This document shows positions 11,559 through 51,800 of a stretch of DNA of 64,000 nt, one piece after another. The translations under genes were made by a program, and so were the position numbers. Location: the NCBI GenBank assembly GCA_000165345.1, contig CM000430.1:672001-736000 (forward strand). Reading direction: 5' to 3'. Each line of letters opens with the position of its first letter. Positions within the stretch are counted from its first letter, which is position 1. The notes beneath the pieces were generated by a model. The model did no database searches. It was not told the origin of the DNA and was given only the letters and a program-made list of their open reading frames with translations.

Positions 11559-13259
11559 ATGAATAATATGAAGTTTTTATTTTATTTTGGATTTTTGGTT
11601 TATGTTATTGGATCATCTGTGAATGCTAATGATTTAGCTCTTCCTCTTAAGAAGAATAAGGAATGCGAACATTGCATTATAAAGGGCGATCAAAGTGTTA
11701 AAACTCAGGTTAAAGGAGCCTATTTAGTGGTTGAGAAGGAAACCACTCTTTCTAAAACTCCAGATACACAAATTAAGCCATTTGATGAAGTTCCAAAACC
11801 ACCAAAGGTTGGAACTGATGATGCCGAAGATGATAAAACCAATGTTAAGGAATTAAGTCCCACTGTTGGTGAAGTTCCAAATGTTGTTCCAGAGCCTAGA
11901 TATATTCCAACTGTAAAGATATATGATTCTCAAATTGAGGATTTATCATTTCCAGAAGATGTTGATTCAGAAACACAATCAGAAGAGTCTGAAGATGATA
12001 ATGAAGATGAGCTTATTTTGACACGTTTGCAACTTGGAGGCCAAGTTGAAGTGGTTTCAAAGAGAGACAGTGAAGGTAAGATTGAGATTCAGAATATTGG
12101 TAACCTTGATTTATCTTGTACTCGAATTGAAGAGGAAACTAAGCCAAAGAGTAAATCAAAACTTAGAGGTAATAAATCTTCAAATTCAATGGTTTCTGGT
12201 TCAGATTGCCCTCAAAGTACCCGTTTCCTGACATATGATCTCTTAATGTTACAGAATGTAGGAGAGGAGCCTACTGATGGTGATAGTGTTACTTCACAGC
12301 CATCTTTAGAGCATACAGAGTCTGAGCAGAATAGCGGTAACGGTCGTGTTATTAGAAAGTTAGCTAGTGGTTTGGAATGCGATAAATGTGAATTATGCAC
12401 AGAAGATAAGAAATGCTTCTACCATAATGGTAAGAATACTGATAAATCTTCTGAGGCTTTAGAGTCAGACCTACCTTCATCTACTACTACTACTACTACT
12501 ACTACTTCTTCTTCTACTACCACTACCACTACCACTACCACTACCACTACTACTACTACTACCACCACCGCAATCCCACCTTCAATGTCAGATGAGGAGA
12601 AGTCACCATTTGTAAGTGATGATATCTCCAACGATGAAGTCCCAGCTCAAGATGACTCAAATAAGACTCCATCTACTGAAACAAATAAAGATATAGATAT
12701 GAATGTTTTATTAGACAATATGAATGCTTTAGTTAAGATCGTTAAGGAAGGGAAAGAAGAAAGTGCTAAGGCTCAGTTAGAACTTCGTAAAGATAGGGAA
12801 CTATTGACCAAGGTTATTTTAGATCTTAGAGATTCCAAGGATTTGACACAATTATATATACAGCTTGCCAAACTTGAGATGGAAATTAACTTGGTTAAAC
12901 AAAATATTGGACAATTGAAGAGAGATTTAGAAAAGGCCAAATCTTCTAGTAACTTTTTGACTCAATATGAGAATAAGAATAATACAGAATTAGAATTAAT
13001 GAAAGAGAAAGCTATGAGTAGTAAATTATATTCTCCTAAACTTGCAAGAGCAATTTCCAGACTTGAAAAGAAAAAGATCAGTACTCATGCTATTCAAAAG
13101 GATGTCAGTAAGAGAATTGAAAGCTTATCACAAGCTATTTCTACTGAAGAATCTCGTATTTCTGAATTATTAGAGCAAAAGAAGAAAACTGAAAATATAA
13201 TAAATAAGATTTCAAGTGAGGAGAGGTTATCATTCGATGAAGTTGATAATAAGCATTAA
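11559..13259 (+). CDS. secreted Thr/Ser-rich mucin-like protein with C-terminal coiled coil
   Basis: It has the signal peptide MNNMKFLFYFGFLVYVIGSSVNANDLA and an acidic region. It has a tract of about 30 uninterrupted Thr/Ser encoded by (ACT/ACC)n, which is a likely O-glycosylation stalk. The C-terminus has heptad-like coiled-coil sequence. Confidence 0.6.
   Translation: MNNMKFLFYFGFLVYVIGSSVNANDLALPLKKNKECEHCIIKGDQSVKTQVKGAYLVVEKETTLSKTPDTQIKPFDEVPKPPKVGTDDAEDDKTNVKELSPTVGEVPNVVPEPRYIPTVKIYDSQIEDLSFPEDVDSETQSEESEDDNEDELILTRLQLGGQVEVVSKRDSEGKIEIQNIGNLDLSCTRIEEETKPKSKSKLRGNKSSNSMVSGSDCPQSTRFLTYDLLMLQNVGEEPTDGDSVTSQPSLEHTESEQNSGNGRVIRKLASGLECDKCELCTEDKKCFYHNGKNTDKSSEALESDLPSSTTTTTTTTSSSTTTTTTTTTTTTTTTTTTAIPPSMSDEEKSPFVSDDISNDEVPAQDDSNKTPSTETNKDIDMNVLLDNMNALVKIVKEGKEESAKAQLELRKDRELLTKVILDLRDSKDLTQLYIQLAKLEMEINLVKQNIGQLKRDLEKAKSSSNFLTQYENKNNTELELMKEKAMSSKLYSPKLARAISRLEKKKISTHAIQKDVSKRIESLSQAISTEESRISELLEQKKKTENIINKISSEERLSFDEVDNKH
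12479..12569 (+). repeat. trinucleotide (ACY)n coding microsatellite (poly-Thr)
   Basis: The sequence is tactactactact...accactaccact...; the antisense ORF 12419..12631 is a poly-Val artefact of this repeat. Confidence 0.9.
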
Positions 13260-14200
13260 TTAATGGTTCTCTAAGCTTAATTCTTGCTACTTTAACCCAT
13301 AGATAATTCTATCATAAAGAAGAAAAGAATCCAACTTGAAAATACTCTCTTAATCTAATAACAATCTTCTTCTTATATTGAAAAAAAAGAGAAGATGTAA
13401 TTTATTAACAGGATCTCCGAGACGTGGAATCATTAAAATACCCATTATTCATCCCCTTGTCTCCAATTTGGACATATATATGAGCTTCTGACTAATTTTA
13501 TCATTATTATATTATGATGGTTACTATACTACTAACATACTAGAGCAAATTCCAGATAACAAAAGTGGAAATGATCCTATTTCCTTTTTTTTCTGTTGAT
13601 TGTGGTAACTAATTAATAAAGGAGCAAGTATTTAGTTCATTTGATGATGTAATATGAGAGTTAGTAGTGTATTTATTCACTACATTGTTGTGCTACATCA
13701 TTTTTATCCATACTGAAAAGGAATTAAAGAATGTGGAGAGGAACTAAAGCGAGAAGAGAGAGAAAAACTTGATAGAAATGGAGAATAATAGTAATAAATA
13801 GATTTAGAGGTCGTTATACATAATTGTCGTCGACAACTTACTTTTAAATTCTGCCGAGAATATTCATTATTTAGTCCATTTTAATTATTAACTTTAAAGA
13901 CAATTTTTTTAATGTATTGTTTATATTAATATTGTATTTGAAAGATTAAAAAAAAGTTACTCTCCAAAATGCATGTTTGAGCGCCAATTTTTTTTCTTCT
14001 TAATCAATTTCCTACTCTGCTTATCTTTCAAATCGATAATAATTTATAAAAACTGACTATACTGGGAAATTGGTTGTAGATACATAATTCTGGAAAAGAA
14101 ATACAATTATTGCCGATCATTTAAAAGAAAGTAAACAGTTATATTTGAATAAAAAAATCTAAAATAAAACCTAATAAAGCATTGTCAGTTCTGAAACGCT

Positions 14201-14317
14201 TACCGGTATGACAAATATTTGCATGCAAAATTGAAGGATACCCGCCCAAACATTTTATGCACGCCCACTAGTTGTATAATATAGGGATGGGTATGTTTTT
14301 GTTGGCGCGCGCGCCAA
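14201..14317. promoter_or_regulatory. motif cluster: TACCGGTAT, TGCATGCAAAATTGAA, CCCGCCC, CACGCCC, perfect 16-bp palindrome TTGGCGCGCGCGCCAA
   Basis: It lies in the 3'/3' convergent intergenic region between the mucin-like gene and the Gly/Arg-repeat gene. Confidence 0.35.
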
Positions 14318-14448
14318 TAGCTGCCACCTGTTAATTAAGATGTCTGAAGAGTGGAATGACTGGAGTAAAGTGATCAATTGGAATATAGTGCATAACTGAC
14401 TTGTTATTTCTCTCATTTTTCCTTTCCATCTTTTTCTTTCTCTATCTT

Positions 14449-16161
14449 TCAATGTTTACTCGAATTTTCATGTTTAGACTTGCCATTGCCTCCTCTTCCT
14501 TTTTTTCCCCCTCCTCTAGTGGAATGTCCTCCTCCTCCTCTACTAGAATGTCCTCTACCAGAGCTTCCTCCTCTACCAGAATTTACTCCTCCCCCACCAG
14601 AATGTCCTCCCCTACCAGAATGTCCTCCCCTACCAGAATGTCCTCCCCTACCAGAATGCCCTCCCCTGCCAGAATGTCCTCCTCCCCTAGAAGAATGTTC
14701 GCCTCTCTCCATACCTCCTCCTGCTCTTCTTCCTTCTCCTTCTTGTATCACTATCCCTACTCCTTCTGAGTTTTCCCCAGTACTAAGAGCATCCTTAATT
14801 TCAAGTTTTGAGAATAAATGATCAAATAAAGTAATGTTTGAAGAATTATCATGACGAGATTTCAGGAATTCTCTAGCATCAGAGTCAATTTTCTCAGTTG
14901 ATCTAAGAAGTTTTCCTCTAAGAGGAGCTCCAGGATCTCGATCATCATGTAGCTTATTCTTGTCATTCTTACTAGATGCAGATGTTTTTGATGTAGTTGT
15001 AGCCTTTTTTGATGATAAATTAAACTTTTCCAAAGAAATCAAATTCTGTTTTTTATATTTTTGAATCTCCTCAATAAATTCATTATAAGCTTTAACACTA
15101 TTTTCCAAATTCTTGGAATCATTTTCAGATTCGACCGTATTAGTATTCCCAGTAGAAGATAAAGCCAAACAAGGAACAGATTTTAACTTGGATTGAATTT
15201 CTTTATTTTGTTGATAACTTTGTTGTGCATCTTTAACCTGTTCATTTAACTGCTTCCTTTCTGATTCCTTATTTGCAAATGGGATAAATTTCGGTGGTTT
15301 TTTTGTCAGATTTTTTGATCCAGAAAATCCTTTAGATCCTGATCCACTTAATATATTATTCAATTTCCAAGATTCCACCAAAGATTCCACATTCCCTCCC
15401 AAATATTTTACATTATTATTATTTAATAATAATATTGAATTCTGTACTTGTATTTTACTTAATCCTCCTTGTTGTAAATTCAACAATAACTTTGTACCTG
15501 GATATAATACCATATTGTCTTCATTATTCATACAATTCAATCTCTCATATTCTAAAGCGTTAATTATCACTGTATCATTCTTTTGGGTACTTGATTGTTC
15601 TGAAGTTGGTAATTTCATTTTTCCTGTTGTTAATGTAAAATATAACATTCTCTTTTTAAGCTTTATTTTACTTGAAAATCCTTTTCCTTTTTTTCCTTTT
15701 TCCTCATCTAACTCAACTTTCTCTTGTTTCTTATTCACAAAATTATCACTATGATTATTATCATACTCCATTAAATCATCCCAAATTTCATCTTTAAGAT
15801 CACTATCCAAATCATCATTATCATTATCAAAATCTCCAATTGAAGACCTTTTTGGTCTTATACAATCATATGATTTTACTACCATTACTAGTAAATTATT
15901 CAAATCTGTAACTATTTTTCCATCTCTAAATTTAATTGATTCTCCTATAAAATACTCCCTTAAATCACAATCCAATACAAACTTATCCAGATCTTTTTTC
16001 CATTCATCCTTAATCATACCGCTCTTATTACTAACAACATTCTTTTTAATCTTCCCTCCTTTTTTCTCTAATTCATCCAATATATCTTGTTTCTTCTCTT
16101 CTATTATTGATAATATCCCATACTTTTCTCTCAAATATTCTTCCACTTTAATTATATTCAT
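14449..16161 (-). CDS. hypothetical protein with C-terminal Gly/Arg (GGHSGR)n repeat, RGG-box-like
   Basis: This is a 570-aa ORF. The C-terminus is GGHSGRGGHSGRGGHSGRGG...GKKGRGG, encoded by an 18-nt tandem repeat, with a KDEL-less basic tail. The N-terminal two-thirds are unremarkable. Confidence 0.5.
   Translation of the reverse strand: MNIIKVEEYLREKYGILSIIEEKKQDILDELEKKGGKIKKNVVSNKSGMIKDEWKKDLDKFVLDCDLREYFIGESIKFRDGKIVTDLNNLLVMVVKSYDCIRPKRSSIGDFDNDNDDLDSDLKDEIWDDLMEYDNNHSDNFVNKKQEKVELDEEKGKKGKGFSSKIKLKKRMLYFTLTTGKMKLPTSEQSSTQKNDTVIINALEYERLNCMNNEDNMVLYPGTKLLLNLQQGGLSKIQVQNSILLLNNNNVKYLGGNVESLVESWKLNNILSGSGSKGFSGSKNLTKKPPKFIPFANKESERKQLNEQVKDAQQSYQQNKEIQSKLKSVPCLALSSTGNTNTVESENDSKNLENSVKAYNEFIEEIQKYKKQNLISLEKFNLSSKKATTTSKTSASSKNDKNKLHDDRDPGAPLRGKLLRSTEKIDSDAREFLKSRHDNSSNITLFDHLFSKLEIKDALSTGENSEGVGIVIQEGEGRRAGGGMERGEHSSRGGGHSGRGGHSGRGGHSGRGGHSGRGGHSGGGGVNSGRGGSSGRGHSSRGGGGHSTRGGGKKGRGGNGKSKHENSSKH
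14541..14697. repeat. 18-nt tandem repeat (ccagaatgtcctcccctac)n inside CDS
   Basis: There are 5-7 copies with degenerate flanks. The overlapping + strand ORFs 14401..14769 and 14480..14821 are antisense artefacts. Confidence 0.85.
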
Positions 16162-16364
16162 TTTATTATCTCCACTCCTAAATATATACTAATTCACTTT
16201 TTTATATTTAAGTTTTTAAAAGAACCTAAATCAAATCAACTCTTTCAAAATTATCAATTTCAATATTAATATGACCAATTTTATATTTTTAACTGATAAA
16301 AAAAAATTTTAAAATAAAAAAAAAAATCGACACAAATTTACATTTTATTTTCGTGATCCAAAAA

Positions 16365-16399
16365 CGCCGGTATAGAGAAAAAAAAATAAGGTACCGGCG
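16365..16399. promoter_or_regulatory. inverted pair of ACGCCGGTA motifs (cgccggtatag ... ggtaccggcg) followed by G-rich box
   Basis: It lies upstream of the minus-strand gene starting at 16161. Confidence 0.35.
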
Positions 16400-16593
16400 T
16401 GAGGGGGGAGGAGCAATATCACGGGTAGGGAGGATTAATTAAAAAAAAAAAAAAAAGGGAATTTTTAAAACTTAAAAATTAAATTAGCGATAACTTAGAA
16501 GAAATTTAATATCAGAAAGGAAGAAATAGTATTAAAAAAGAAAAGGAAAAGGTAGAAAATTTAGATAGCTCCAATCTTTTATTAGCTTTGTTG

Positions 16594-19065
16594 TCAAAAG
16601 TAATTAGCAATCCAAGGTTGATCCCTTTGCATAGACTTTATCTCACTATATAAATATTCTGAAACTCTTTGGTGGTTGGAAATAACACTATCTCCTGTCC
16701 CACTGAAAGATCTTTGAACTCTATTAGTCATAATTCTTGATACCCCAATTTTGATATTACTGTCGTAAGTGTTTTCAATATTAGCAGTTATTGGAGATAT
16801 TTCACCCAGCCTAAGTAAATTTGGGCTGCTCATCCTACCAACCCTTGTAATTGTCCTCCTTATAATTCTGTCATCAATCCAAGTCTCCCTCTTATGTTTA
16901 ACAATATTTGACAGAAACAATGATGATTTCAGATATCCCAAGACAAAATACTTTCTTGTACAGGTGATATTATCCAAAGTAAATTTATTTGGCCTTGAAT
17001 AATTAACTTTTTCTGTGCATCCTAAAGTTGGCTTCTTTTCCCTCCCAAAATGGTCGAAACAATTCTTAAAAATCTGAAAAGCTTTTTCCTCCAATACAGT
17101 ATTACTTATTCTACCTTGAAATATGATAGCATCCAATAGACCCCAAACTATAGAAGATCCTCTAATTTGGTTTTTACTATCCTGGTCATTCTGCCCTCCT
17201 CTATTTGTTGTCTCTTCTATTAAGCTTCTTAAAAATTCAATATCTTCAAAATTTATTAAAGTTTCAATGTAATCTAAGATTTCAATAATCAAAGATACTA
17301 AATAACCTCTATAAGTACTTGAATTTGAAATTCTTCCAACTTCTGAAGATTCTTCTTTTTTTATAGAAAGCTCAATCGCAATTCCCCAAACACAACCTTG
17401 CATAATCTTAATAATCTCAAAATTTATCATTTTTAATCTTGAACTAATAATATTCGGTACCTGTTTATTGTCCATTCCTCTACATATTTTAATTGGACTC
17501 ATTAATATCCCTTTTCTTGATTCTGAATTCAATACTTGATTACCTAAGTTCAAAATTCGAGCCCCCAAATCATTCATCCATTTTGTAGGTTTTACTCCAA
17601 ATAGACCCTTCTTTTCCTTTTCATCTTTCTTCTTATTACTATTCTCTTCTTCTAATCTCTTTTCAGCATGTTCTTTTCCTCTTTCCAACTTTACTAGAGT
17701 ATTTATCACAAGCATTAATCCAGAAGCCAATCCAGAATAAAGATACAAATTTTGTTGATTTAATGATGAAATATTTGTAAATATTGAGCCTAAATTCTGA
17801 ACAGATCTTGATAAACTTAATAGTAATTCATATATTAAATCATCTGATAATGAAATCTTATCCCCTCGGTATCTATTATTATTCCAAATATTTAATTTAT
17901 TATTAATTTTCTCTCTCTCTCTAAAGTATTTCATTATTCTTGATAACTTTGTATCCATTGATAAAGGTGTGAATTCTGAATTAATTTTTTCAAAATTGAA
18001 ATGATCAAATACTTGGGTTAGATCTAAAAACCCTTCAAAAAGATCCACCAAAAACTCACATGTTGACTTTATCAGCTGTGGTCTATCCCTATTCTTTCTT
18101 CTACTAAGTAAATTTCTCTCATCTCCCAATTCATTATCCAACCTAAAATTTTGGCATAATCTTCTTAATATATCATCCAATTTAATTTCGGTACCCCTAA
18201 TAAATAGTTCATGATCTTGATCTTGATCTTGACCTTGACAAAACAATATTCCAATTATCAACTTTAACAAATGAAATATTGAAGGATGATTCAGTAAGCT
18301 TATTAAATTTAATAAAAACCTCCCATTTTTTGTTGATAATATGTACTTCCAGGTCCATTCCAAATCATAAATCATCATATAGTAAACTAATTTAGAAAAG
18401 TTGGAAATTCCCACTATATTAGACTCTAATCCAAGTTCCTCCTCATATTCACCATTTTCATCCAGTATGAATTCTATTAATACAGATATTGGCATTGCAT
18501 ATATCCTATCAAGACGGTTCTCCTTTACTAAAATATTATCTTCCAGATTAAGACCTTGATCTGATTTTGAATATGTATTATTATTTCTTTGAATATCTGG
18601 TCCTAGTATCGAGTTTGTTTCAATATTTAAATTTGGCTTTAAGCTGAAATTGGATTCAAATCTTGAACTCGTTTCTGAATCTGTAACTAATCCAGAGTCT
18701 GAGTCTAACTCAGAATCTGATTCTGAATTTAAACCTAAATCTGAATCTGATTCAAGATCAAAATCCAATTCAGAATCTTTTACTGAATCTGAATTAGTAT
18801 TTACATTAAAGTCTATCCCAAAAGTATATCCGCTTATTAATACATCCAAAAACACATTTGTACAGAGCAGCTCTGTTGCTAATCTACTGTATTTAAATAT
18901 CTCTTCTGATGGATATAATGAGATTTCTAATAATCCCATAATATTATCATGATCCATAGCTATCTCCATCAATTCATCATTGCTCATCCCATCCAAATAG
19001 TCCAAAAATTTAAATTTAAAACCTTCAGAACATTCTCCTCCATCAATAAACTTCTCGTCATTCAT
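16594..19065 (-). CDS. SAPS-domain protein (PP6/Sit4 phosphatase regulatory subunit-like)
   Basis: The N-terminal FKYSRLATELLCTNVFLDVL resembles the SAPS signature (R/K)(F/Y)KYP..ACELLT.DV. It has an acidic (SDSE)n repeat region. The ORF-track start at 19071 is TTG, and the first ATG is at 19065. Confidence 0.45.
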   Translation of the reverse strand: MNDEKFIDGGECSEGFKFKFLDYLDGMSNDELMEIAMDHDNIMGLLEISLYPSEEIFKYSRLATELLCTNVFLDVLISGYTFGIDFNVNTNSDSVKDSELDFDLESDSDLGLNSESDSELDSDSGLVTDSETSSRFESNFSLKPNLNIETNSILGPDIQRNNNTYSKSDQGLNLEDNILVKENRLDRIYAMPISVLIEFILDENGEYEEELGLESNIVGISNFSKLVYYMMIYDLEWTWKYILSTKNGRFLLNLISLLNHPSIFHLLKLIIGILFCQGQDQDQDHELFIRGTEIKLDDILRRLCQNFRLDNELGDERNLLSRRKNRDRPQLIKSTCEFLVDLFEGFLDLTQVFDHFNFEKINSEFTPLSMDTKLSRIMKYFREREKINNKLNIWNNNRYRGDKISLSDDLIYELLLSLSRSVQNLGSIFTNISSLNQQNLYLYSGLASGLMLVINTLVKLERGKEHAEKRLEEENSNKKKDEKEKKGLFGVKPTKWMNDLGARILNLGNQVLNSESRKGILMSPIKICRGMDNKQVPNIISSRLKMINFEIIKIMQGCVWGIAIELSIKKEESSEVGRISNSSTYRGYLVSLIIEILDYIETLINFEDIEFLRSLIEETTNRGGQNDQDSKNQIRGSSIVWGLLDAIIFQGRISNTVLEEKAFQIFKNCFDHFGREKKPTLGCTEKVNYSRPNKFTLDNITCTRKYFVLGYLKSSLFLSNIVKHKRETWIDDRIIRRTITRVGRMSSPNLLRLGEISPITANIENTYDSNIKIGVSRIMTNRVQRSFSGTGDSVISNHQRVSEYLYSEIKSMQRDQPWIANYF

Positions 19066-30262: not shown

Positions 30263-31129
30263 ATGGGAAATCAATTAGTGAAATTGCGAGCAGATAGAGC
30301 ACAAGATGCTCAAGATGTTAGAGAATGGGCGTTTGCAACTTTCCCAGGATTAGAAACCAATTTAGAAGCTATCTTTGCTTATCACTGCACTGATGGAGTT
30401 GGATTATTAGACTACGAGACAATTGAAAAAATTTCAAGACATTTGATTATGAATTTTGGTTATACTGATTTACTCTTGAGATTTACAACCCCAAACGGTA
30501 CACTAGACAACAGACATGTAAGTAATGGATTAGCTATATTAGATGTTGATATTAGAAAGCCAATAACTTTGGATACTTTTAAGAACTTTGTTGTATGTTG
30601 GTTAGATAGGTTAATCGAGGCTCAAGATAAAGATGTGGAAAATTTGAATTCAGCTTTAAATAATGAGCAAGAGAAACAAAAGGCTAGAATTCTTCATGCA
30701 GTAGCCCAATGGAGAGAGAGATTTAAGACTATTGATGATTTCCATGTATTCTGTGACGATGTTAGAGATGCTAAGAAAGTCGAACTTGATGAAGTTGTTG
30801 CCGATGTTTACGATATGCAGGAAAGACTCAACGAGCAGCAACTTAGACTCTTACAAAGACAAAAAGAAGTTGAGGAAGTTTATGCCAATGTACAAGCAGA
30901 AGAGGCTGCTATACAAGAAGCTCTTTCTAATGCTCCAACTGCTACTCAAATCATTTCCGAGGAAATCGCCAAAACCTTCAAGAATAATATTCAAGGAGAT
31001 GTTACTCAAATTGCATATTCATCCGAACTTACTCCATTTGGAGCCCCAGTTTCTGCTGGTGCCTCTACTTCTTTCAAGAGAAATATTCCAAAGGCAAGAA
31101 AATCTACAAAAGTTTTAGGAATGTGCTAG
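30263..31129 (+). CDS. hypothetical protein (288 aa), N-terminal MGN.., C-terminal Cys
   Basis: The ORF is clean with an ATG start, and its composition is more balanced than the neighbouring genes. I recognised no domain. It starts MGNQLVK and ends ...VLGMC. Confidence 0.4.
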   Translation: MGNQLVKLRADRAQDAQDVREWAFATFPGLETNLEAIFAYHCTDGVGLLDYETIEKISRHLIMNFGYTDLLLRFTTPNGTLDNRHVSNGLAILDVDIRKPITLDTFKNFVVCWLDRLIEAQDKDVENLNSALNNEQEKQKARILHAVAQWRERFKTIDDFHVFCDDVRDAKKVELDEVVADVYDMQERLNEQQLRLLQRQKEVEEVYANVQAEEAAIQEALSNAPTATQIISEEIAKTFKNNIQGDVTQIAYSSELTPFGAPVSAGASTSFKRNIPKARKSTKVLGMC

Positions 31130-31480
31130 TTGTTTAAATTTCTATCATAGCCAACATTCCACTTTTTACTTTATAATATTTACAATTACAATTTGAAAAG
31201 TTTCACAAAAAGAAAAGATGTAGCTAAAAATTAAGCAAGGCCAGGTTAGAAAAGGATGTAATGTATTTGGAGCAATATTAATAATTACTTATTATTTAAA
31301 GTTATAGTCTTTTTTTTATTTACTAGAATATGATATATAAATAAATAAGCGAGGAAAAACCAAGCTGTTAAAATTAGCTTTAGGTGAAATACTCATTTTA
31401 TTTGTTTTTCTTCTAATAAGGTACACTTTATTGTCGTCAAAAAATTAACATGGAAAGTTAAGCCCAAATAACCGGAGAAT

Positions 31481-31526
31481 GTTTGCGCCAAAAAATGCAT
31501 GCAAGTGCATGCATGCAAAATTGAAA
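31481..31526. promoter_or_regulatory. E2F-like TTTGCGCCAAAA followed by three overlapping TGCATGCA boxes and the 16-mer TGCATGCAAAATTGAA
   Basis: It lies in the convergent 3'/3' region between the gene ending at 31129 and the secreted-protein gene ending at 31579. The 16-mer is identical to 14220-14235. Confidence 0.35.
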
Positions 31527-31578
31527 TGTGGGAATCAAATTAAAATAATTTCTTTTCCTATATAAAAGCAATAGAAAT

Positions 31579-34500
31579 TTAATTTGTTTGAATGTGACTA
31601 TTTAATTCTCTCTCAATAGTATTCTGTAGTTTGAATATCTCTTTCCTGATATTTTTTATATAAATTGTGATTATTTCTGGAGTAGAAGTAATTTCAGCAT
31701 AACATCTCAATTCTTTGGTAATGCCCTTAGACTCTTGAGAAAGTTTTTGAATACTTTTTTCTACAAGTTTTATTCCTTCTTCCATACTTTTGTTTAAATA
31801 AGAAGTTTGGAGCATTTCTATCTCTTTCTTTGCAAGTTGGAATTCTGTCACAAGATTATTAAACTTTAAGGAAATTTCTTCAGCTTCAGTACACATTCTA
31901 AAGCTTTCGTGGAACTCAGAAACTGTTTCTGATGCATTCTTTAGAAAAGCTGAAATATTTTCTTTTGCTTGTGAAAACTCTACTGTTATGCTTTCGCATT
32001 TATTATCAGGTTTCTTCCTTCTAACTGCATATTTGAGTATAGAAAGAGCTCTTGATGTTTTGGAAGTCCCATCTTTATCGATTCTTCCACAAAAGAGGTC
32101 TATTCTTGCTTGGAGTTGATATAGAAATTTATCCATAATTTTAAGATTATCATCTAAAATGCTTATATCATTACTATATTTTGAGATTCTTTTAACTAAT
32201 TTTAAGTCTCGATCTAAAATAACCTTGAATTTTGAAAGTTCATTCTTTAATCTGTTTGTCTCATCTCTTAATTTTTTAATATTAGCATGTTTTTCTTTAT
32301 TTGAAAATGTCTCATTTAATATTCCTTGTTTATTCAAAAAAGAATGAGAAATACCAAGTAAAATATCCAGATTCTCTTGATCTGATTTCTCTACGTTAGA
32401 AATAGTAAATTCTAATACTTGAATATGTTTTTCCAAACTTTGAATTTTATTTATTAATGGTTTGGCAAAAGAATCTACTTCTGAATCATCTTCCTTGAGA
32501 CTATCTAATTCTTTTTGAAGATTAAAATTTAGTTCTATCAGTTTTTCTTTTAAATTGGATAATTTCATGATTGTCTCATTCTTTAAAGAATCACTTTTAT
32601 TGGTATCTGAAATTACAAAACCTGTTTCAAAGAAATTCTTTATTAAGTTTTTCGATTTTTTTTCAAGTATAAAATCTAATGATAGTAACTTCAACTCCTC
32701 CTGAGTAGAAATTAGTGGAGACTCTTCTTCCCACATTGAATACTTGGTCATAAATTTGCTTGATATACCCAACCTCAAAGTTGGATTATTTATAATGTCA
32801 ACAAAATTTGTATTACACCTTTCAATCTGTTGATTCATATATGTATGATTTAATATATATTCTAACTTCTCTAGGTCAAGGACTCCTGTCATAGAAAACT
32901 TTTCTTTTTCTCTATCCAATAGCTCAATCTGAAGTTTTAAATCTGGAAATAACATCTCATTATAATGTCTTAATCTTAATATACCATTTTGTAATTCTGA
33001 AATTTTTGATATGCTCTCAGATTTAAGAAATTCATTAACTATTTTAAACAAACCAACTATTTTTGTATGGTGAAACTCTGAATTGGAATCAAACTTAAAT
33101 GGACTTTTTAACCCTTTTTCCCAAAGATTCTTAAACAGATCTTTTGAAGATTCGAAAAAACTCTCAAGCTGAACTTTTGGGTCATTTTCTTTGATTTTTT
33201 TATATATTCCATTCCAAATCTCCAAATACCCTTTCTTTAATACTTGAAAATGAATTTCAAACTTATTTAGTAATTGTTTAAAGATTTCAGAATTTTTCTC
33301 ATGTCTCACGACTAGAATCCCAGTTCTTAAAGCATCTAATGTAAATCTAAATCCATTAAGGGATTTCTTAATACCTTGATCTACCTCTTCCAAATCTCCT
33401 TGATACTCTTTTAATGTATATACTAAATCTGATAAATTACGTAAATTGTAAGCTAAAAAGGACTTTGAAAGGGCCAATATTACTTTGAATATTAAATTAA
33501 CTGATATTTGAAGCCAGTCAACAAAATATTTGACCATTTTTCTATTTGAAACAATCCAATGACTTCTTTCTCTTTGGAGACTTAAGAAATGAGATTTCAA
33601 AGCTTGAATATCTTGAGAAATATCTTCTACAGTAATAATAGAATTAAGTTCATCAGATCTAGCTTTAATAATAATGTCCAATAAACCTTTCAGATTTAGA
33701 TCTAGCTCGATTTTCTTTGAAACTATCGCATTGTGTTCTTTAATAATAGATTCATTTTTACTTTTTAAGAGTGAAATAGAGTTTTGAGATCTTTTAATGA
33801 GTTTCCTAGATATTCCATTCAAAATTGAAATATTTTGGCCTTCTCCAATAACTAGTCCCCATGCTATTTGTCTACAAGAAGAACTAGAAGTGATAGTAGA
33901 AATCAAAGACAGAATTTTATTAATCTTTTCAACGAGTTCCTGTAGTTCTTTTTTGTGAAATTTTTGTTTCTGTTTCTTATTGGAAAAACCACTACTTAAC
34001 ATTGAAATTGCAAATATATTAATTGAATCGAGCAATGAATACCACTTATTAACATCTATACCATTTACATAATTTAATGGAGTGTTTTTCAAGATCTTTT
34101 TATTACTTGTCTCATCATCTTGAAGAAATAAATCCTTGAATTTTTCTTGAACTTTTATATCTATATTGGAAAACCATCCTTTCTTATTTAGGGAAGATTT
34201 TTTTAATATTGGACCAACTTCATCCTTATATGCCAGATATTTCTCATTAAAATCAGACTCTAAATCTTGTATATGAGTTTTATTTGTAAGATCTAACGAC
34301 ATTTTCAAGCTTCCAATTTCTGAAAGTGATGACTCAATTAATTGATCAGTCTCTTGTTTAACCAATTCTAAATATAACTTTTCATTATTTAATAATTCAA
34401 AATTACTTTCTTTTTGAATATCATTTAAGCCTATATTCTTAACTTGCTCCAATTCTACCTCTATATTATTTTCTTCTTTACTTTTAATTCCATCTTCCTC

Positions 34501-34602
34501 TACTTCTACAACATCGTTTTTTTTGGAGTCTAAATCATTTCCAGAAACAAAAGAATAGGTAAACCATAGATTTAATAATAAAACATAGAAGATCTTTCTC
34601 AT
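31579..34602 (-). CDS. large secreted coiled-coil-rich hypothetical protein (1007 aa)
   Basis: It has the signal peptide MRKIFYVLLLNLWFTYSFVSGND. The rest is Lys/Glu/Leu/Ile-rich heptad-like sequence throughout. I recognised no catalytic motif. Confidence 0.45.
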   Translation of the reverse strand: MRKIFYVLLLNLWFTYSFVSGNDLDSKKNDVVEVEEDGIKSKEENNIEVELEQVKNIGLNDIQKESNFELLNNEKLYLELVKQETDQLIESSLSEIGSLKMSLDLTNKTHIQDLESDFNEKYLAYKDEVGPILKKSSLNKKGWFSNIDIKVQEKFKDLFLQDDETSNKKILKNTPLNYVNGIDVNKWYSLLDSINIFAISMLSSGFSNKKQKQKFHKKELQELVEKINKILSLISTITSSSSCRQIAWGLVIGEGQNISILNGISRKLIKRSQNSISLLKSKNESIIKEHNAIVSKKIELDLNLKGLLDIIIKARSDELNSIITVEDISQDIQALKSHFLSLQRERSHWIVSNRKMVKYFVDWLQISVNLIFKVILALSKSFLAYNLRNLSDLVYTLKEYQGDLEEVDQGIKKSLNGFRFTLDALRTGILVVRHEKNSEIFKQLLNKFEIHFQVLKKGYLEIWNGIYKKIKENDPKVQLESFFESSKDLFKNLWEKGLKSPFKFDSNSEFHHTKIVGLFKIVNEFLKSESISKISELQNGILRLRHYNEMLFPDLKLQIELLDREKEKFSMTGVLDLEKLEYILNHTYMNQQIERCNTNFVDIINNPTLRLGISSKFMTKYSMWEEESPLISTQEELKLLSLDFILEKKSKNLIKNFFETGFVISDTNKSDSLKNETIMKLSNLKEKLIELNFNLQKELDSLKEDDSEVDSFAKPLINKIQSLEKHIQVLEFTISNVEKSDQENLDILLGISHSFLNKQGILNETFSNKEKHANIKKLRDETNRLKNELSKFKVILDRDLKLVKRISKYSNDISILDDNLKIMDKFLYQLQARIDLFCGRIDKDGTSKTSRALSILKYAVRRKKPDNKCESITVEFSQAKENISAFLKNASETVSEFHESFRMCTEAEEISLKFNNLVTEFQLAKKEIEMLQTSYLNKSMEEGIKLVEKSIQKLSQESKGITKELRCYAEITSTPEIITIYIKNIRKEIFKLQNTIERELNSHIQTN

Positions 34603-39919: not shown

Positions 39920-42515
39920 TTATAAGTTAAAGTTTGATATTAATGTCTCAAGCTGCTTAGTTATATTGCTCAGCTTATTTATATTTCGATGGCATTGCTG
40001 CCTTTTTTCCACTATCCCTTTTTCTTCTTGAAGAAGGTCGTCAAAAATCTCCTCTCTATAGAGTTTTGCTACCAACTCTCTCTGAATTGCTTCTTTAGCA
40101 GCATTCACCATAAAATACATGATTGCCTTGGGAACTGAGTCTGCTACGTTCTTACGCACAATGTTAAAGTATGACACAATGAAAAATTTTATCACATCTG
40201 ACTCAATCTTTTCCCGTTCTGAAGGATCCCCAGATGTTGCTATTGTTTCTGGAACCAATGGCAATCCCATCTTTCCCCCAAACCTTCCTGAATAATTCTT
40301 CTCATTCTCTGCCAAATTGGCGCCAAATACCCCTGCATGCACAGTTTTGGCGGGATTGTGGCCTTGTATTTTCTTAACTGGGCTAAAAATGTCAATGGAA
40401 GAAGTTGTTGAACGGTTGGTTGGGAAAACTGGTGAGTTTTCGTTGATGCTTTTTATTGGTTTGGAAACAGAGCTTATTTGGTGAGTTTCGATAACTTTGT
40501 AATTTTGGTAGGTTGAAATATTTTCTGTCTCGTTATATTCTGTGGAAACATATTGTGATTTACGAGACTCATGTTGATCATTAAAGAAATCATTCAAAAT
40601 AATTCTACTTTTTCCTGAAGGAGTCATCGGGACTGAATCAGAATCAAGAATAATAGAGTCTTGTACTTGTTTGTTGGACCTATCATTTGAGTTATTTCTA
40701 GTCAAACCTTCAGTTAAAAAGGCTTTTTCCTTTTCAAAAATAGAAGTTAGGGCTGACGCACCTCCAATAAAGTCTGGATGGTTTGTATTTATATAGGCCA
40801 ATTCCATATTTATAAGGTCAATCACAGCTCTGTTAGTTGGTCCAAGGCATTCTTCTAGGACATGATTGACTACTGAAATCATATTATTCTTCAAATTAGA
40901 GTATCGATTAAGCTCCGGTAAAGAACATTGCTCAACTAATCTTTTAAGTTCATCATAGACTTGTTCTACGCAAGTAAGAGAAGGCCTAAGTAACTTTTTT
41001 ATTTGGATCCTTGCAAGAACTTCAAATGCGCCTTCAGATACAAATAAAGACGATTTTGTTCCTGTTGAATTTTTTATTGCTGTTCTAATTTCAGTATCTG
41101 ATAGACCATCCAAAGGATCAAAGTTGAAAAGAGTGTTTCCAAACCAGTTATGAAATACATAATTCAGTCTTGCACCTCCTGAAAGCTTCATTAGGCCAGT
41201 TTGATAGGATGCTTGTCCATCAATCATATTTTGGAACTTTCTTGAAAACTTTGAAAAGCAGTTTAGTATCATAGCTCCTTTGTTTTTTATCATATAGGAT
41301 CCATCAAGGCCTATACTTTCTCCTCCAATGAATAAAGCTTTGTTAGTTAAGGCACTAATTCCATCTAAATAAGAAAGCAATATATTATATTGTAATTGAA
41401 GTATTTCATTATATTTACTTACCTATTTCATCCATTATATCAGATTGAGAAAAATCACCATAATTAATTAGCTCCATTTGTTTAAGATCTATAAGCTTTT
41501 TTGAATGGTTCTTAATCTGTGGAAGCAACTTAAGAATGTGATCCAGAAACTCCTTTTGGAGAATATTTACTAAGTTGTAAGTTCCACAGCGAGACTGATA
41601 AGACTTCAGTTTTGAGTTGTTTTCGAAAAAAGACTTTTCATCATTCAAAGAAGCTCTCAAAGATCTTGGACCTCCTGCTTTTTGTCTGGAATCTCTGCAC
41701 ATAACTGCTACATACCCCCTATTTAAAGGATATGATTGATTACTTAGTACTTGTAGTGTTGTTGAGTAATTTTCTACTGTGTCCAGTTTACTTAAAACAC
41801 CTATTGTTCTGATACCTTCAGGATCCACCTCTCTTGCAATATTTAAGCTATCAGAATTTGCAATATCAGTGTTTGCAGCTGTAATTGCCAAAATTAAACA
41901 GCTTGGACGTCTTATATATGACAAAACAATCTTCCTAATTTGAGTTTCTATATCAAAAGGTTGGTCCTCAATTGGTACTTTTGTCAATCCTGGTAGGTCC
42001 ACCAAAGTCAAATTAATTGCCTTCTTTGAGAAGATTCTCAGTAATATCGGAACTTCTGAAACATTCTTATTTTCTCCTATCAATCTATTGGTCTCAATCA
42101 GAATTTCTTCTTTGACTTTTTCGAAATCTGTAAATTTCAGCCCCTTTTTATGGCCAAACTCTGCGTAGTCATCTCTATTTTCTTGCTTAATTTGCTGAAG
42201 TTGCAAAATAAGTGGCCTCCTAGTGACTATTCCTTGTCCTCTTGGCAGAAAATGACGGCCTAATAGGTCATAAGTGCATTAATAAACAACGAAAATAGTA
42301 ATCATAAGAATTATTATAAATTTAATATAATTTGTCAGAAACTTACCTATAATGTATTCCAAAAGTGAAGTTTTCCCTACTGATTGAGAGCCTACTACTG
42401 CTATTTCAGGTAGGTCTAAGTTTAATTCATTTGAAACATTGCAGCCTCCTGAGCCCTCTTTTAAAATAGTCAGAATATCATGAAGTTCGTTTATAATAGG
42501 TATCAGAGAATCCAT
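39920..42515 (-). CDS. dynamin-related GTPase, predicted 3 exons (816 aa)
   Basis: Exon 1 is 42515..42347 (MDSLIPIINELHD...GSQSVGKTSLLEYIIG, which carries the P-loop). Intron 1 is 42346..42260 (GTAAGT..TATTAG). Exon 2 is 42259..41423 (RHFLPRGQGIVTRRPLILQLQ..., LVDLPGLTKV, the dynamin G2-G4 motifs). Intron 2 is 41422..41365. Exon 3 is 41364..39920 (GGARLNYVFHNWF middle domain, GED). The ORF-track start at 42527 is a TTG. Confidence 0.8.
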
Positions 42516-48882: not shown

Positions 48883-51800
48883 TCAGCCTTTTTTCTTTAT
48901 TCTATACAATTTTGGAAGGTCAAGATAATGCTCTTTAATTATTGATAATGAGCTTCTTGGATATATGTTGAATTTCTTATTTAGTATTGAGGAATACTGT
49001 TGGTACTTTATTCTATAAGATATAAAGAAATCATCAATTCCAAGTGATTTATAACGTGAATTAAGGCAAGTAATAATTGAATCATACACAGCACATTTAA
49101 TTAGCAAATTCCATTGGTATTTATTAGGAAGTTGCTTTTTATACGAATAAATATTGTAGCAACATGCGTTTGAAATCCACTCCAAAACTTTGACTAAGAA
49201 TCTGGGATTAATAAACCCTTGGTGTATTTTCTTAATTCTTTTAAAGGTTGAAAGCAGTTTTAGTATACCAATATATACAACAATCACTATATTTGTGTAA
49301 ATCTATATGATAAAGAAAAGAATTTTCATAATAAACAAGAATGAAAATTAATTAATTAATTAATTGGTTGGTTATTTGTTGAATTATATTTAAAACTTAC
49401 CGTAAATAAAGAATTGATTTTACAATCATATAGCAATCCATTCTTGATTCTAAAATCAAAGTATCTTATTAATTTTATACCCAAAACAGACCACATATAA
49501 TTTGACTTTTGAAGGTTTTCAGATATCGTCGTCGACTTAAACCTGTGAAAATTTGAATAATTACTTGTAAATTGGTGCTTAGTTGTCAAGGTTACAGTAT
49601 CCATAACACATATGAATTCCAAATTCTTCCATGGGGAAACCATGCAATTCAAATAGCTGTACTCACTGGAAAACTTCATTCCTGTCCATGATACTTGTTT
49701 ATGGAACTGTTTTAAGGCTATCTTAGCCTTGTTAATCATTTCTTTTTCATTTTGGCAGTCCTTTTCACTTTTGTTGGTATTTATTCTCTTTTCCACTGGA
49801 CTGCTTGTGCACTCTGTCGAAGGTGGGAAGGAAGAAGAGGACGATGAGGAAGACGACGAAGAAGATGAAGAGGAAGATGAAGAGGAACAAGATGATGAAC
49901 AGGAAGAGGAAGGCGAAGATAGTAAAACATCATCCTCCTCAAGGATGATGATCTCATTATTGTGGTCAATCCAAGGAAAGTTAGAGTTGATTTTGTCCTT
50001 GGAAACGTTCGATCCCCATAGTTTTTGTATATAAAGTAACTTTAAGAACTTTTTGGCGGACTCCAAATCGGATGTGAGAAAAAGAAAATCGTCTACCCAT
50101 CTCAATAAGAGACTTTCTTGCTTATTGCTCTGAGAAGGACTTTCTTGATCATAACTTTTGAGATTGGCACGGATTTGGCAATTCTGGTTGTTGATATTAT
50201 TATTAAACTCTTCGGAAGGTTGCAGTAAAACACTTTTAGCATTAATATTATATTCTGATATTTCTAGTCTTCTTTTTTTACTTGTACTAGTATTATAAAT
50301 ATTTATCTCATTTTCTTTAAATTCTGGGTAACGGGATAATCCTGTCTCAAGATCATGTTGTGAAAATAAGTCTTTTTCAGTTGGATCAAGTAATTGTACT
50401 TTTTCTTGTTTAATTGGATTCAGAAATGATAAAGAAATGTAAGAGGAGGAAAAAAATGAATGTCCCAAAAGATTCTGGATTTCTGGATTTAGATCTAAGA
50501 AATTATAATAGAGACAACAAAGAATGTAAGAAATACTTGATCCTTGTGGAATTCCAAAATCTTGCTTAAATAAGCTTAGAAATCTTTTTCCAAATTTGAT
50601 AGAATTTCCAAGTTGTTTAGATTTTATTAGTCTTAAAGACTTTGAACATGTCCTAAGTCGAAAAAAGCTTGTGTTAAGGTGGATCTTAATGATCTCCTTG
50701 ACTAATTTCCAGTTTATCACACGTCTTGAATTTAAAAAAGTAAAGATTTCTGCTTTTTTTTGTCCCAAAATACTCAAATCCTTGTTTGATAAACAAGAAT
50801 TTTTAAGATTCCAAAGAAGTTCATCTAAATCTGGTCCTATAATCCTCTTAATTTTTGATTTGACGACTTTTTGATCTTCATCATGATCTTTCTCAAAAAT
50901 AGGTACCATATTTAGTTTTCCTTTTGAAGTAATAATACATGATCTCCCAAGCTCATCTTGGTAAGAGTCTCTATTCATATTATCAAAAGGCGGAATAATT
51001 GTTGTTTTACTTAAAGCCCTTGAATATAAGCTCAAAAGGGAAATTTCATTTGGAAGAGAAATTACATCCAAAAACTCAAAAATCTTGGACTTATTTATAT
51101 TTTCAAAACAGTTCACTAAATCTGCTTTAATAATATAAATCTTTACATGGGACATTTTTTTACCTTGATTTTGATAAAAATCTTCATTCATTTGAAATTG
51201 TTGTTTGTCTCTTCTATTCTTTATCCACCAATTCTTTATAATCTTATAAATATCTCCAAACTGTACAAGAGAAGCACCAAGATGATTCTTTCCTGTCATT
51301 CTTAATAGAAAAGATCTTAAAATCTTGGAAGGATAAAACAACATATTATTTGTTGATGGACGTCTTATATCTATAATTCTATTACTTGAAGGACGTCTCA
51401 TTACCTTATTAATTGGAGTAGTAGGTACCGATGATCCTGAATTTATTCCAATTCCTATATTATAATTACCAAATCCTAATCCCACTCCTAATCTTCCTGG
51501 TGGTGTCATAATCTGACAATTTTGGCTTGAAAATGATGTAAAATTCTTTCCTCCTATATTATTAATATGACCATAATTATGATTATTTCCTACAATACCG
51601 TTATTACCATTACTATTAAAGTAGTTATAATAGTAATTGTTATTAATCCAACTTGTTGGAAGATCTCCACCAGTCCAAACTGAATTACAATCACAAAAAC
51701 CAATCTTCTTCTTTTCTTCACAAGTGTGATCTCTTTCAAGATTTTGTTGAAGAATTTGTCCAGATCCAACTTTTGATAAATTTATTAATGGTCTTAAACC

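What the first reader, a model, noticed from the sequence alone, without database searches (positions are those of the whole stretch)
31481..31526. Exact 16-mer TGCATGCAAAATTGAA shared with 14220-14235, again in a convergent 3'/3' region next to an E2F-like box
The identical 16-mer occurs twice in 64 kb, which is essentially impossible by chance. Both copies lie in convergent 3'/3' regions and both are adjacent to E2F-like GC boxes (TTTGCGCCAAAA here). This copy is preceded by three overlapping TGCATGCA boxes. Related GCATGCAAATTT variants occur in ordinary 5' regions at 5628, 34778 and 59611. This suggests a composite element of an AP2-type TGCATGCA box plus A/T extension, which may mark bidirectional or antisense promoters.
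Basis: seen in the sequence. Interest (0 to 1): 0.5.

Follow-up and report, generated by a model that had tools for sequence, protein, structure and literature searches.

The report
Known AP2/E2F boxes; 16-mer identity coincidental
The repeated 16-base word is two copies of the well-known Cryptosporidium AP2 binding box TGCATGCA with an A/T-rich tail, each inside a conserved cluster of E2F and AP2 boxes between convergent genes; such clusters are already published as typical upstream regions of antisense RNAs, and the exact 16-base match is most likely coincidence.

Summary
The window is Cryptosporidium parvum. TGCATGCAAAATTGAA occurs exactly at 14220 and 31510, both in gaps between convergent genes and next to E2F-type GC boxes.

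The claim "essentially impossible by chance" is wrong. This AT-rich window holds 11 unrelated exact pairs of 16 bases or more, and Markov simulations give 5.7 +/- 2.5. Given the 10 copies of the enriched TGCATGCA core, two copies share an 8-base flank about 2-3% of the time.

The 16-mer is not conserved. C. meleagridis has one mismatch. Chipmunk genotype I and C. ubiquitum differ at both sites. The tail evolves at about the rate of the surrounding gap.

What is conserved is the module: an E2F-type box plus a nearby TGCAT-type box, at the same position in 4-5 species at each site.

Li et al. 2021 already reported E2F and ApiAP2_1 (ANTTGCATGYA, i.e. the core plus an A-rich flank) as the top motifs upstream of C. 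parvum antisense lncRNAs, which are biased to 3' ends.

Best reading: two ordinary E2F/AP2 regulatory modules, probably promoters of unannotated non-coding or antisense transcripts. Transcription from them is not shown. Low novelty.

The parts
31510..31525 (+). 16-mer copy 2: AP2_1 core TGCATGCA (31510-31517) plus tail AAATTGAA
   Evidence: C. meleagridis has TGCATGCAAAAATGAA (1 mismatch) and chipmunk genotype I has TGCATGCATGTATATTGAA.
31496..31513 (.). Two further palindromic AP2_1 boxes (31496-31503 and 31506-31513; the second overlaps the 16-mer core)
   Evidence: Multiple TGCATG-type boxes are kept in C. meleagridis and chipmunk genotype I, and one TGCATG in the L008 species.
31482..31493 (-). 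E2F/DP1-type box TTTGCGCCAAAA (minus strand TTTTGGCGCAAA)
   Evidence: It is the best-conserved element of the cluster: TTCGCGCC (meleagridis), TTTGGCGCC (chipmunk, ubiquitum), TTTGCCGCC (L008 species) at the same position.
31525..31536 (-). Motif-5/G-box-like block AATGTGGGAATC (minus strand ATTCCCACATT)
   Evidence: ATTGAAATGTGGGAATC is identical in C. parvum and chipmunk genotype I. It resembles Li et al. motif 5 instances TTCCCCACATG and GTCCCCACATT, which often co-occur with the AP2 motif upstream of lncRNAs.
14220..14235 (+). 16-mer copy 1: AP2_1 core TGCATGCA (14220-14227) plus tail AAATTGAA. The left flank is also A/T-rich (minus strand TGCATGCAAATATTTG).
   Evidence: Chipmunk genotype I has TGCATGAAATATTTAA, C. 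ubiquitum TTCATGTGAATTTGG, C. canis CACATGCATACTTT at the aligned position.
14239..14249 (-). E2F-type box TACCCGCCCAA (GGCGGG type)
   Evidence: It matches Li et al. motif 1 instances such as TACCCGCCATA and TGCCCGCCCAA. C. ubiquitum has CCCGCC at the aligned place.
14302..14317 (.). Palindromic double E2F box TTGGCGCGCGCGCCAA
   Evidence: The GCGCGCGC core is invariant in C. parvum, chipmunk genotype I, C. ubiquitum and C. canis, about 125-150 bp past the stop codon of the RMI1-like gene.
13970..13987 (.). Second, smaller box cluster in the site-1 gap: TGCATG (13970-13975) and GCGCCAA (13981-13987)
   Evidence: Box clusters occur at similar distances from the right-hand gene's stop in chipmunk genotype I (TGCATGTTTG) and C. 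ubiquitum (CCCGCC, TTGGCGCG); one search aligns the C. parvum TGCATG with GTGCGT in chipmunk genotype I, so strict orthology of these boxes is not shown.

Best explanation
The two 16-mers are two independent instances of the known Cryptosporidium ApiAP2 'AP2_1' site: the palindrome TGCATGCA with the usual A-rich flank. Each sits in a short cluster of standard promoter-type boxes together with E2F/DP1 sites, and at site 2 also a G-box/motif-5-like block.

These clusters are real, evolutionarily retained cis-regulatory modules in two convergent intergenic gaps. By analogy with published genome-wide data, they most likely recruit E2F/DP1 and a TGCAT-binding ApiAP2 to start transcription of unannotated non-coding RNAs. 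Those RNAs would be antisense to the 3' end of the adjacent minus-strand gene (RMI1-like 14449-16161; 1007-aa gene 31579-34602), or intergenic within the 1.19-kb site-1 gap.

The exact identity of the last 5-7 bases of the two copies is chance on top of the known flank preference. It is not a 16-bp functional unit.

Shown here: motif identity, enrichment, positions and conservation. Inferred: factor binding and transcription.
For: - Organism and geometry: the window is C. parvum, the genes are convergent, and no gene is called in either gap.
- Core enrichment: TGCATGCA occurs 10 times against 0.66 expected. Eight of the ten copies are outside ORFs.
- Published binding: AP2 domains cgd2_3490, cgd1_3520, cgd8_3230 and cgd5_4250 bind TGCAT/TGCATGCA; cgd1_3520 also binds the G-box (PMC4117751; PMC3734150).
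- Published context: E2F/DP1 and ApiAP2_1 are the top two motifs within 100 bp upstream of 396 mostly antisense, 3'-biased lncRNAs, and they co-occur at 17 of them (PMC7840661). Their logo ANTTGCATGYA equals the core plus A-N-T, and 14 of 20 full-core instances have the A flank.
- Conservation of the module rather than the word. At site 2 the E2F box is kept in five species and the TGCATG boxes in four. At site 1 GCGCGCGC is invariant in four species, with a TGCAT-type box 50-85 bp away; C. felis has TTTCCCGCCACATGCAAAG plus GCGCGC.
- Box density: AP2_1 and E2F boxes are as dense in convergent gaps (0.94 and 2.35 per kb) as in tandem or divergent gaps, and about 20-fold rarer in coding sequence.
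- Chance level of the identity.
- No hidden alternative content: no conserved ORF, no Rfam family, no stable RNA fold, and no flank homology.
Against: - No transcript evidence could be obtained for either locus. All public contigs carrying the genes are genomic.
- Fourteen-mers from four candidate antisense or gap transcripts, and 12-13-mers from the conserved blocks, are absent from the stored (truncated) lncRNA FASTA of Li et al.. I had no positive control from this window.
- Sporozoite ATAC-seq peaks were reported to lack AP2 motifs (bioRxiv 10.1101/2025.01.17.633476). Any AP2-driven activity would therefore be stage-specific.
- Over the box clusters, identity to chipmunk genotype I and C. 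ubiquitum is only slightly above the gap average. The footprint rests on the individual boxes.
- The modules are absent from the distant species C. ryanae, C. bovis and C. muris at site 2.
- The conditional probability of the shared tail (about 0.02-0.03), plus the fact that both copies are the two convergent-gap copies, leaves some room for a real subclass.
Confidence: 0.6

Rival explanations
1. The 16-mer is a true composite site read as a unit. It could reflect extended specificity of one ApiAP2, or an AP2 plus a partner bound to AAATTGAA. It would define a subclass of sites that marks antisense or bidirectional promoters at convergent gene pairs.
For: - The conditional chance of a shared 8-base flank is only 0.017-0.03.
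- The two identical copies are exactly the two core-bearing convergent gaps. Both have the same orientation, with the tail pointing at the 3' end of the minus-strand gene.
- In the window, 5 of 30 GCATGC flanks fit A(2-4)T(2-3)G against 0.18 expected. In the three ordinary 5' regions the tail points toward the gene.
Against: - The tail is not conserved at either site and changes at about the background rate: 7/8 (meleagridis) and 6/8 (chipmunk) at site 2; 6/8 and 4/8 at site 1. Gap averages are 0.84, 0.74, 0.60 and 0.49.
- Spacing between the core and ATTGAAATG differs in chipmunk genotype I.
- The A(2-4)T(2-3)G pattern was defined after seeing the data, and it has 0 of 54 matches in nine other-species loci.
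- The arrangement of the E2F boxes differs between the two sites.
Confidence: 0.1
2. The box clusters are functional E2F/AP2 binding sites but not promoters of separate transcripts. They would act on the flanking protein-coding genes, as downstream or distal regulatory elements, or as bound boundary or termination-associated elements between convergent transcription units.
For: - The boxes are conserved, yet no lncRNA was found at these loci in the stored list.
- The site-2 cluster lies 33-96 nt past the stop codon, before the first canonical A(A/G)TAAA signal at 147 nt. It therefore sits inside the likely 3' UTR DNA of the 1007-aa gene.
- A strongly conserved unstructured block (31205-31267) in the same gap shows that other constrained non-coding elements exist there.
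Against: - I found no published precedent in Cryptosporidium for downstream enhancers or boundary elements.
- The same motif pair is documented as lncRNA-upstream.
- All long convergent gaps in the window carry such boxes, which fits extra transcription units.
Confidence: 0.17
3. The element acts at the RNA level. UGCAUGCA repeats in the 3' UTR of the minus-strand mRNAs would form a hairpin or bind an RNA-binding protein.
For: The site-2 boxes probably lie within the 3' UTR. Tandem palindromes can pair: an 8-bp stem is predicted.
Against: - The folds are no more stable than shuffled sequence: z = -0.86 and -0.83 at site 2, +1.47 and +0.60 at site 1.
- Site 1 has a single box 214 nt from the stop codon.
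- The co-conserved partner is a GC-rich E2F DNA motif.
- No Rfam match was found.
Confidence: 0.04
4. The boxes in these gaps are non-functional chance occurrences or decaying remnants, and the 16-mer repeat is pure coincidence. A duplicated segment or mobile-element remnant belongs to this group of explanations.
For: - Exact 16-mer pairs are common here.
- Overall identity of the cluster regions is near the gap average.
- The modules are absent in distant species.
Against: - The core is about 15-fold enriched, and it is largely excluded from coding sequence.
- E2F boxes are kept at the same position in 4-5 species while the surrounding sequence has diverged to 48-60% identity.
- Duplication is excluded, because the flanks are unrelated.
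Confidence: 0.09

Closest known systems
ApiAP2 'AP2_1' motif (BGCATGCAH / TGCATGCA), bound in vitro by C. parvum cgd2_3490, cgd1_3520, cgd8_3230 and cgd5_4250, and by the P. falciparum orthologue PF14_0633
   Same: Identical palindromic core. It is strongly enriched in non-coding DNA of the window. The A-rich first flank bases match the published logo ANTTGCATGYA. Boxes occur singly or in tandem, as in Li et al. table S3.
   Different: Here two of the box-bearing regions are 3'/3' gaps rather than annotated 5' regions. The further tail TTGAA is not part of any published logo and is not conserved.
Cryptosporidium E2F/DP1 sites (TTTGGCGC, GGCGGG, [C/G]GCGC[G/C])
   Same: TTTTGGCGCAAA, TACCCGCCCAA and TTGGCGCGCGCGCCAA fit the published consensus. 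They are the best-conserved elements at both sites.
   Different: They are located downstream of stop codons of convergent genes. Whether E2F/DP1 binds them was not tested.
lncRNA-upstream motif set of Li et al. 2021 (motifs 1, 2 and 5 within 100 bp of antisense lncRNA starts)
   Same: Same motif types in the same close packing. The position at the 3' end of a sense gene matches the reported 3' bias of antisense RNAs.
   Different: No lncRNA from these two loci was found in the stored part of their set, so membership as an lncRNA promoter is unproven.
TGCATGCA elements in other Apicomplexa (Toxoplasma TRP-2 / AP2XII-8 sites, Plasmodium AP2-EXP / AP2-Sp sites)
   Same: Same core, also a promoter-proximal ApiAP2 site (titles and abstracts; PMC4117751).
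   Different: Those organisms lack E2F/DP1. The pairing with E2F boxes is specific to Cryptosporidium.

Membership tests
ApiAP2 AP2_1 binding site | Sequence matches [T/C]GCATGC[A/G] (BGCATGCAH) | tested here: met
   TGCATGCA at 14220, 31496, 31506 and 31510.
ApiAP2 AP2_1 binding site | Over-represented, and preferentially in non-coding or upstream DNA | tested here: met
   10 observed against 0.66 expected. Density is 0.41-0.94 per kb in tandem and convergent gaps (0 in divergent gaps) against 0.04 per kb in coding sequence.
ApiAP2 AP2_1 binding site | Bound by a TGCAT-specific AP2 domain at this locus | not testable with these tools
   Only published protein-binding microarray specificities are available. 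There are no ChIP or EMSA data for these coordinates.
E2F/DP1 site | [C/G]GCGC[G/C] or GGCGGG core flanked by T-rich and A-rich bases | tested here: met
   TTTTGGCGCAAA (31482-31493, minus strand), TACCCGCCCAA (14239-14249), TTGGCGCGCGCGCCAA (14302-14317).
E2F/DP1 site | Evolutionary retention at the orthologous position | tested here: met
   Site 2: five species. Site 1: GCGCGCGC in four species.
Antisense or intergenic lncRNA promoter (Li et al. 2021 type) | Motifs lie within about 100 bp upstream of a mapped lncRNA start | tested here: inconclusive
   Probes from all candidate transcripts are absent from the stored lncRNA FASTA. That file is truncated, and the newer annotation with 766 lncRNAs could not be queried.
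Antisense or intergenic lncRNA promoter (Li et al. 2021 type) | Located at the 3' end of a sense gene with no protein-coding gene to serve | tested here: met
   The genes are convergent, no gene is called in the gaps, and there is no conserved ORF.
   One mismatch in C. meleagridis. Two or more changes plus an indel in chipmunk genotype I. Degenerate in C. ubiquitum. The tail's identity is close to the gap average.
   Only two copies in 64 kb, conditional P about 0.02-0.03. The whole genome could not be scanned with these tools.
Dispersed repeat or duplicated segment | Similarity extends beyond the shared word | tested here: not met
   Flank identity is 0.25-0.33 against 0.30 expected.

The most novel reading that the evidence does not exclude
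The conserved E2F plus TGCAT modules in these convergent gaps are dedicated promoters of conserved, still unannotated antisense or intergenic RNAs. The extended TGCATGCAAAATTG-type site would be the preferred target of one particular TGCAT-binding ApiAP2 that sets the direction of transcription, with the tail pointing downstream. That would give Cryptosporidium a sequence code for 3'-end antisense initiation.
Probability: 0.08. Interest if true: 0.45.

Novelty: already known. Interest (0 to 1): 0.15.

Why it matters
If the modules do start antisense or intergenic transcripts, they add two conserved examples to a published picture: E2F and AP2 boxes at the 3' ends of Cryptosporidium genes driving stage-specific antisense RNAs. 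They would also give concrete, small targets for reporter or CRISPR tests in a parasite where almost no cis-element has been validated.

The main practical lesson is methodological. In a 68% A+T genome, an exact 16-mer repeat within 64 kb is expected several times by chance. When it contains a 15-fold enriched transcription-factor box, the identity says little beyond 'two sites of the same factor'.

Tried and rejected
- **Small RNA gene in the gaps:** no tRNA. No Rfam hit at gathering threshold. Only E of about 0.7-0.9 noise at relaxed threshold.
- **Hidden protein-coding gene:** six-frame tblastn between species gave only multi-frame, stop-containing matches, which means nucleotide-level conservation.
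- **RNA hairpin from the tandem palindromes:** z-scores from -0.86 to +1.47. Consensus folding of conserved block B gave 3 pairs and no covariation. My first attempt on block A used wrong coordinates for L012 and is uninformative.
- **Duplication or mobile element:** the flanks are unrelated.
- **Looking up the loci in Li et al.'s lncRNA set:** seven sequence-probe searches found no match to the candidate transcripts. Two E2F 11-mers identical to the site-2 box occur in table S3 (Cp_lnc_2, Cp_lnc_90), but without the adjacent AP2 boxes, so they are other loci. PMC9465071 has no stored supplement.
- **Transcript ends from public assemblies:** all contigs carrying the 1007-aa gene are genomic.
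- **A guess from gene order that the 1474-aa ORF is the TGCATGCA-binding AP2 cgd2_3490:** wrong. It carries a telomerase RNA-binding domain.
- **A softer extension A(2-4)T(2-3)G:** nominally enriched in the window, but post hoc and not replicated in other species.
- **Not attempted:** scans of the bacterial, viral or metagenome collections for the 16-mer, because they do not hold this genome and a 16-mer would give only chance hits.

Full report
**What the window is.** Exact-protein look-ups place the window on a roughly 992-kb chromosome of Cryptosporidium parvum (CP044421.1, CP029781.1, CM109962.1). The genome is compact and 68% A+T. Gene order is shared with C. meleagridis, chipmunk genotype I, C. 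ubiquitum, C. canis, C. felis, C. ryanae, C. bovis, C. muris and one unnamed species from a Logan assembly.

**The observation.**
- TGCATGCAAAATTGAA is present exactly, on the + strand, at 14220-14235 and 31510-31525.
- Site 1 lies in the 1189-bp gap between a mucin-like gene (11559-13259, +) and an RMI1-like gene (14449-16161, -). It is 214 bp from the RMI1-like gene's stop codon.
- Site 2 lies in the 449-bp gap between a 288-aa gene (30263-31129, +) and a 1007-aa gene (31579-34602, -). It is 54 bp from the 1007-aa gene's stop codon.
- Three independent annotations call no protein-coding gene in either gap.
- E2F-type boxes are adjacent at both sites. Site 2 carries three TGCATGCA boxes in total.
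- The cited variants at 5628 and 34768 (- strand) are real. The one at 59611 is weak.

- Excluding the tandem phosphoglucomutase duplication and simple repeats, the window contains 11 exact pairs of 16 bases or more in unrelated places. Order-1 and order-3 Markov simulations of the same sequence give 5.7 +/- 2.5.
- What is truly non-random is the 8-base core: 10 copies against 0.66 expected.
- Given those cores, I drew 16-20 random intergenic 8-mers as flanks. Two of them matched exactly in 1.7-2.7% of trials, or 2-3% after conditioning on the common A or AA start.
- Outside the 16 bases the two sites are unrelated: 0.25-0.33 identity against 0.30 expected. This excludes a duplicated segment.

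**What the pieces are.**
- The core is the 'AP2_1' motif (BGCATGCAH), one of the most over-represented upstream motifs in C. parvum. Four ApiAP2 domains bind it in vitro (PMC3734150, PMC4117751).
- The GC boxes fit the Cryptosporidium E2F/DP1 consensus.
- The MEME logo for the AP2 motif in Li et al. 2021 is ANTTGCATGYA, which is the core plus A-N-T on one side. Of the 20 full-core instances I could read in their table S3, 14 have the A flank. So the first one to three bases of the tail are already part of the known motif.
- At site 2 the bases after the 16-mer (minus strand ATTCCCACATT) resemble their motif 5 (TTGTCCACATK; variants TTCCCCACATG and GTCCCCACATT). In their table that motif frequently accompanies the AP2 motif.
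- Site 2 therefore reads: E2F box, then three AP2_1 boxes, then a motif-5/G-box-like block, all within 55 bp.

**Conservation.** The 16-mer is in every C. parvum assembly fetched and in no other species.

| Site | Species | Sequence at the aligned position |
|---|---|---|
| 2 | C. parvum | TGCATGCAAAATTGAA |
| 2 | C. meleagridis | TGCATGCAAAAATGAA |
| 2 | chipmunk genotype I | TGCATGCATGTATATTGAA |
| 2 | C. ubiquitum | ACATGTGTGTCAAATTAAA |
| 1 | C. parvum | TGCATGCAAAATTGAA |
| 1 | chipmunk genotype I | TGCATGAAATATTTAA |
| 1 | C. ubiquitum | TTCATGTGAATTTGG |

- The tail's identity (7/8, 6/8, 6/8, 4/8) tracks the average of the surrounding gap (0.84, 0.74, 0.60, 0.49).
- The modules, in contrast, are retained. 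At site 2 an E2F box stands at the same place in five species, followed by TGCATG-type boxes in four.
- At site 1 the GCGCGCGC core of the double E2F box is invariant in C. parvum, chipmunk genotype I, C. ubiquitum and C. canis, about 125-150 bp past the RMI1-like gene's stop codon. A TGCAT/CATGCA box lies 50-85 bp to its left. C. felis has TTTCCCGCCACATGCAAAG plus GCGCGC in the equivalent region.
- The distant C. ryanae, C. bovis and C. muris lack the site-2 module.
- The arrangement differs between the sites: E2F is upstream of the 16-mer at site 2 and downstream at site 1. This argues against a fixed composite.

**Context within the window.** Using ORF-based gene models, AP2_1 and E2F boxes are about as dense in convergent gaps (0.94 and 2.35 per kb) as in tandem (0.41, 1.77) or divergent gaps (0, 2.54). 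They are rare in coding sequence (0.04, 0.13). Every convergent gap of 449 bp or more carries E2F and/or TGCATG-type boxes; the only one with none is 102 bp long. This fits the idea that long 3'/3' gaps hold extra transcription units.

**How it most likely works.**
- Li et al. 2021 found that E2F/DP1 and ApiAP2_1 are the top two motifs within 100 bp upstream of 396 lncRNAs. Of those lncRNAs, 92% are antisense and biased to the 3' end of the sense mRNA. The authors proposed bidirectional promoters.
- The two modules here have that composition and position. My preferred reading is that they are promoters for unannotated antisense or intergenic RNAs, using E2F/DP1 and a TGCAT-binding ApiAP2.
- This step is inference. 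Probes from all candidate transcripts were absent from the stored, truncated copy of their lncRNA FASTA. I could not query the newer annotation with 766 lncRNAs. No transcriptome-derived contig was available.
- Mapping the published poly(A) signal A(A/G)TAAA suggests that the site-2 cluster lies inside the DNA for the 3' UTR of the 1007-aa gene: the cluster is 33-96 nt past the stop codon and the first signal is at 147 nt. The RMI1-like gene has no canonical signal for 772 nt.
- These facts keep alive the rival that the boxes act on the flanking genes or on termination, rather than starting separate RNAs.

**Rivals tested.**
- An RNA-level hairpin is not supported (z from -0.86 to +1.47).
- No Rfam family, tRNA or conserved ORF is present.
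- A softer extension A(2-4)T(2-3)G follows 5 of 30 GCATGC flanks in the window (0.18 expected). I defined it after seeing the data, and it has 0 of 54 matches in the other species' loci.

**Comparison with what is known, and verdict.**
- Everything that could be tested places the sites in two known motif families (AP2_1 and E2F/DP1) and in a published context (lncRNA-upstream motif pairs at gene 3' ends).
- The proposed 16-bp composite element fails the conservation test and cannot be evaluated genome-wide with these tools.
- The finding is therefore a correct observation with an overstated significance. Its interpretation is broadly in line with existing literature but adds nothing new to it.
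- Interest is low. The residual novel reading, a direction-setting extended AP2 site for 3'-end antisense initiation, has a probability of roughly 8%.

Noticed in passing
window 31205-31267: A strongly conserved, unstructured non-coding block 75-140 nt past the stop codon of the 288-aa gene. It is 92% identical between C. parvum and C. ubiquitum over 63 nt, in a gap that is otherwise 48% identical. AAATTAAGCAAG is invariant in five species. It has no ORF, no Rfam hit and no consensus fold. It is much better conserved than the 16-mer region and may be a 3' UTR or DNA protein-binding element.
   Followed up: partly
window 13838-13887 (and the whole gap 13260-14448): The site-1 gap keeps an unusual length in C. 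parvum, chipmunk genotype I and C. ubiquitum (1189, 1366 and 1151 bp, against a 504-bp genome mean). It contains a 49-nt block that is 96% identical between C. parvum and chipmunk genotype I, plus a second TGCATG + GCGCCAA cluster at 13970-13987. A minus-strand AATAAA at 13677 follows the block. This could be an unannotated intergenic RNA. No ORF is conserved.
   Followed up: partly
window 40313-40366: An E2F / AP2_1 / E2F cluster (TTGGCGCCAAATACCCCTGCATGCACAGTTTTGGCGGGA) lies in frame inside the dynamin ORF, about 400 bp from its 3' end and next to another convergent junction. It is conserved in C. meleagridis, but being coding sequence that is uninformative. It is a possible intragenic antisense promoter.
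   Followed up: partly
window 6171-7792 versus 8394-10015: The two tandem phosphoglucomutase genes share many long exact stretches (up to 224 bp). This suggests recent duplication or ongoing gene conversion.
   Followed up: no
window 10065-11031: Another long (967 bp) convergent gap carries several E2F-type boxes (10583, 10922, 10942, 10974) and two TGCATG boxes. The adjacent 124-aa ORF is annotated inconsistently between assemblies (124 aa versus 84 aa).
   Followed up: no
window 22806 and 22870; L012 9209-9273, L013 9229-9291, L016 21702-21766: A group of GCATGC-type boxes, including two full TGCATGCA cores in C. parvum, lies 730-800 bp upstream of the cathepsin C gene. The same region in chipmunk genotype I, C. 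ubiquitum and C. meleagridis carries matching GCATGC boxes (for example ttattGCATGCaaac), a clearer conserved AP2_1 site than the 16-mer.
   Followed up: no
L014 (C. canis) 12087-12104, orthologue of the left end of the site-1 gap: C. canis has a short (TGCA)n run, TGCATGCATGCATGCATGCG, next to CGCGCC just past the stop codon of the left-hand gene. So AP2_1-type boxes can expand as a microsatellite.
   Followed up: no
window 49356-53780 (-): The 1474-aa ORF carries a telomerase RNA-binding domain (Pfam PF12009, E = 3.5e-20). It is probably the telomerase reverse transcriptase gene.
   Followed up: partly
L015 (C. felis) 15334-17320: The C. felis gene model for the RMI1-like gene spans 1987 bp for 545 residues. 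It runs over the region that holds the E2F/CATGCA module in the other species, leaving a gap of only 174 bp. This may be a mis-annotated 3' extension.
   Followed up: no
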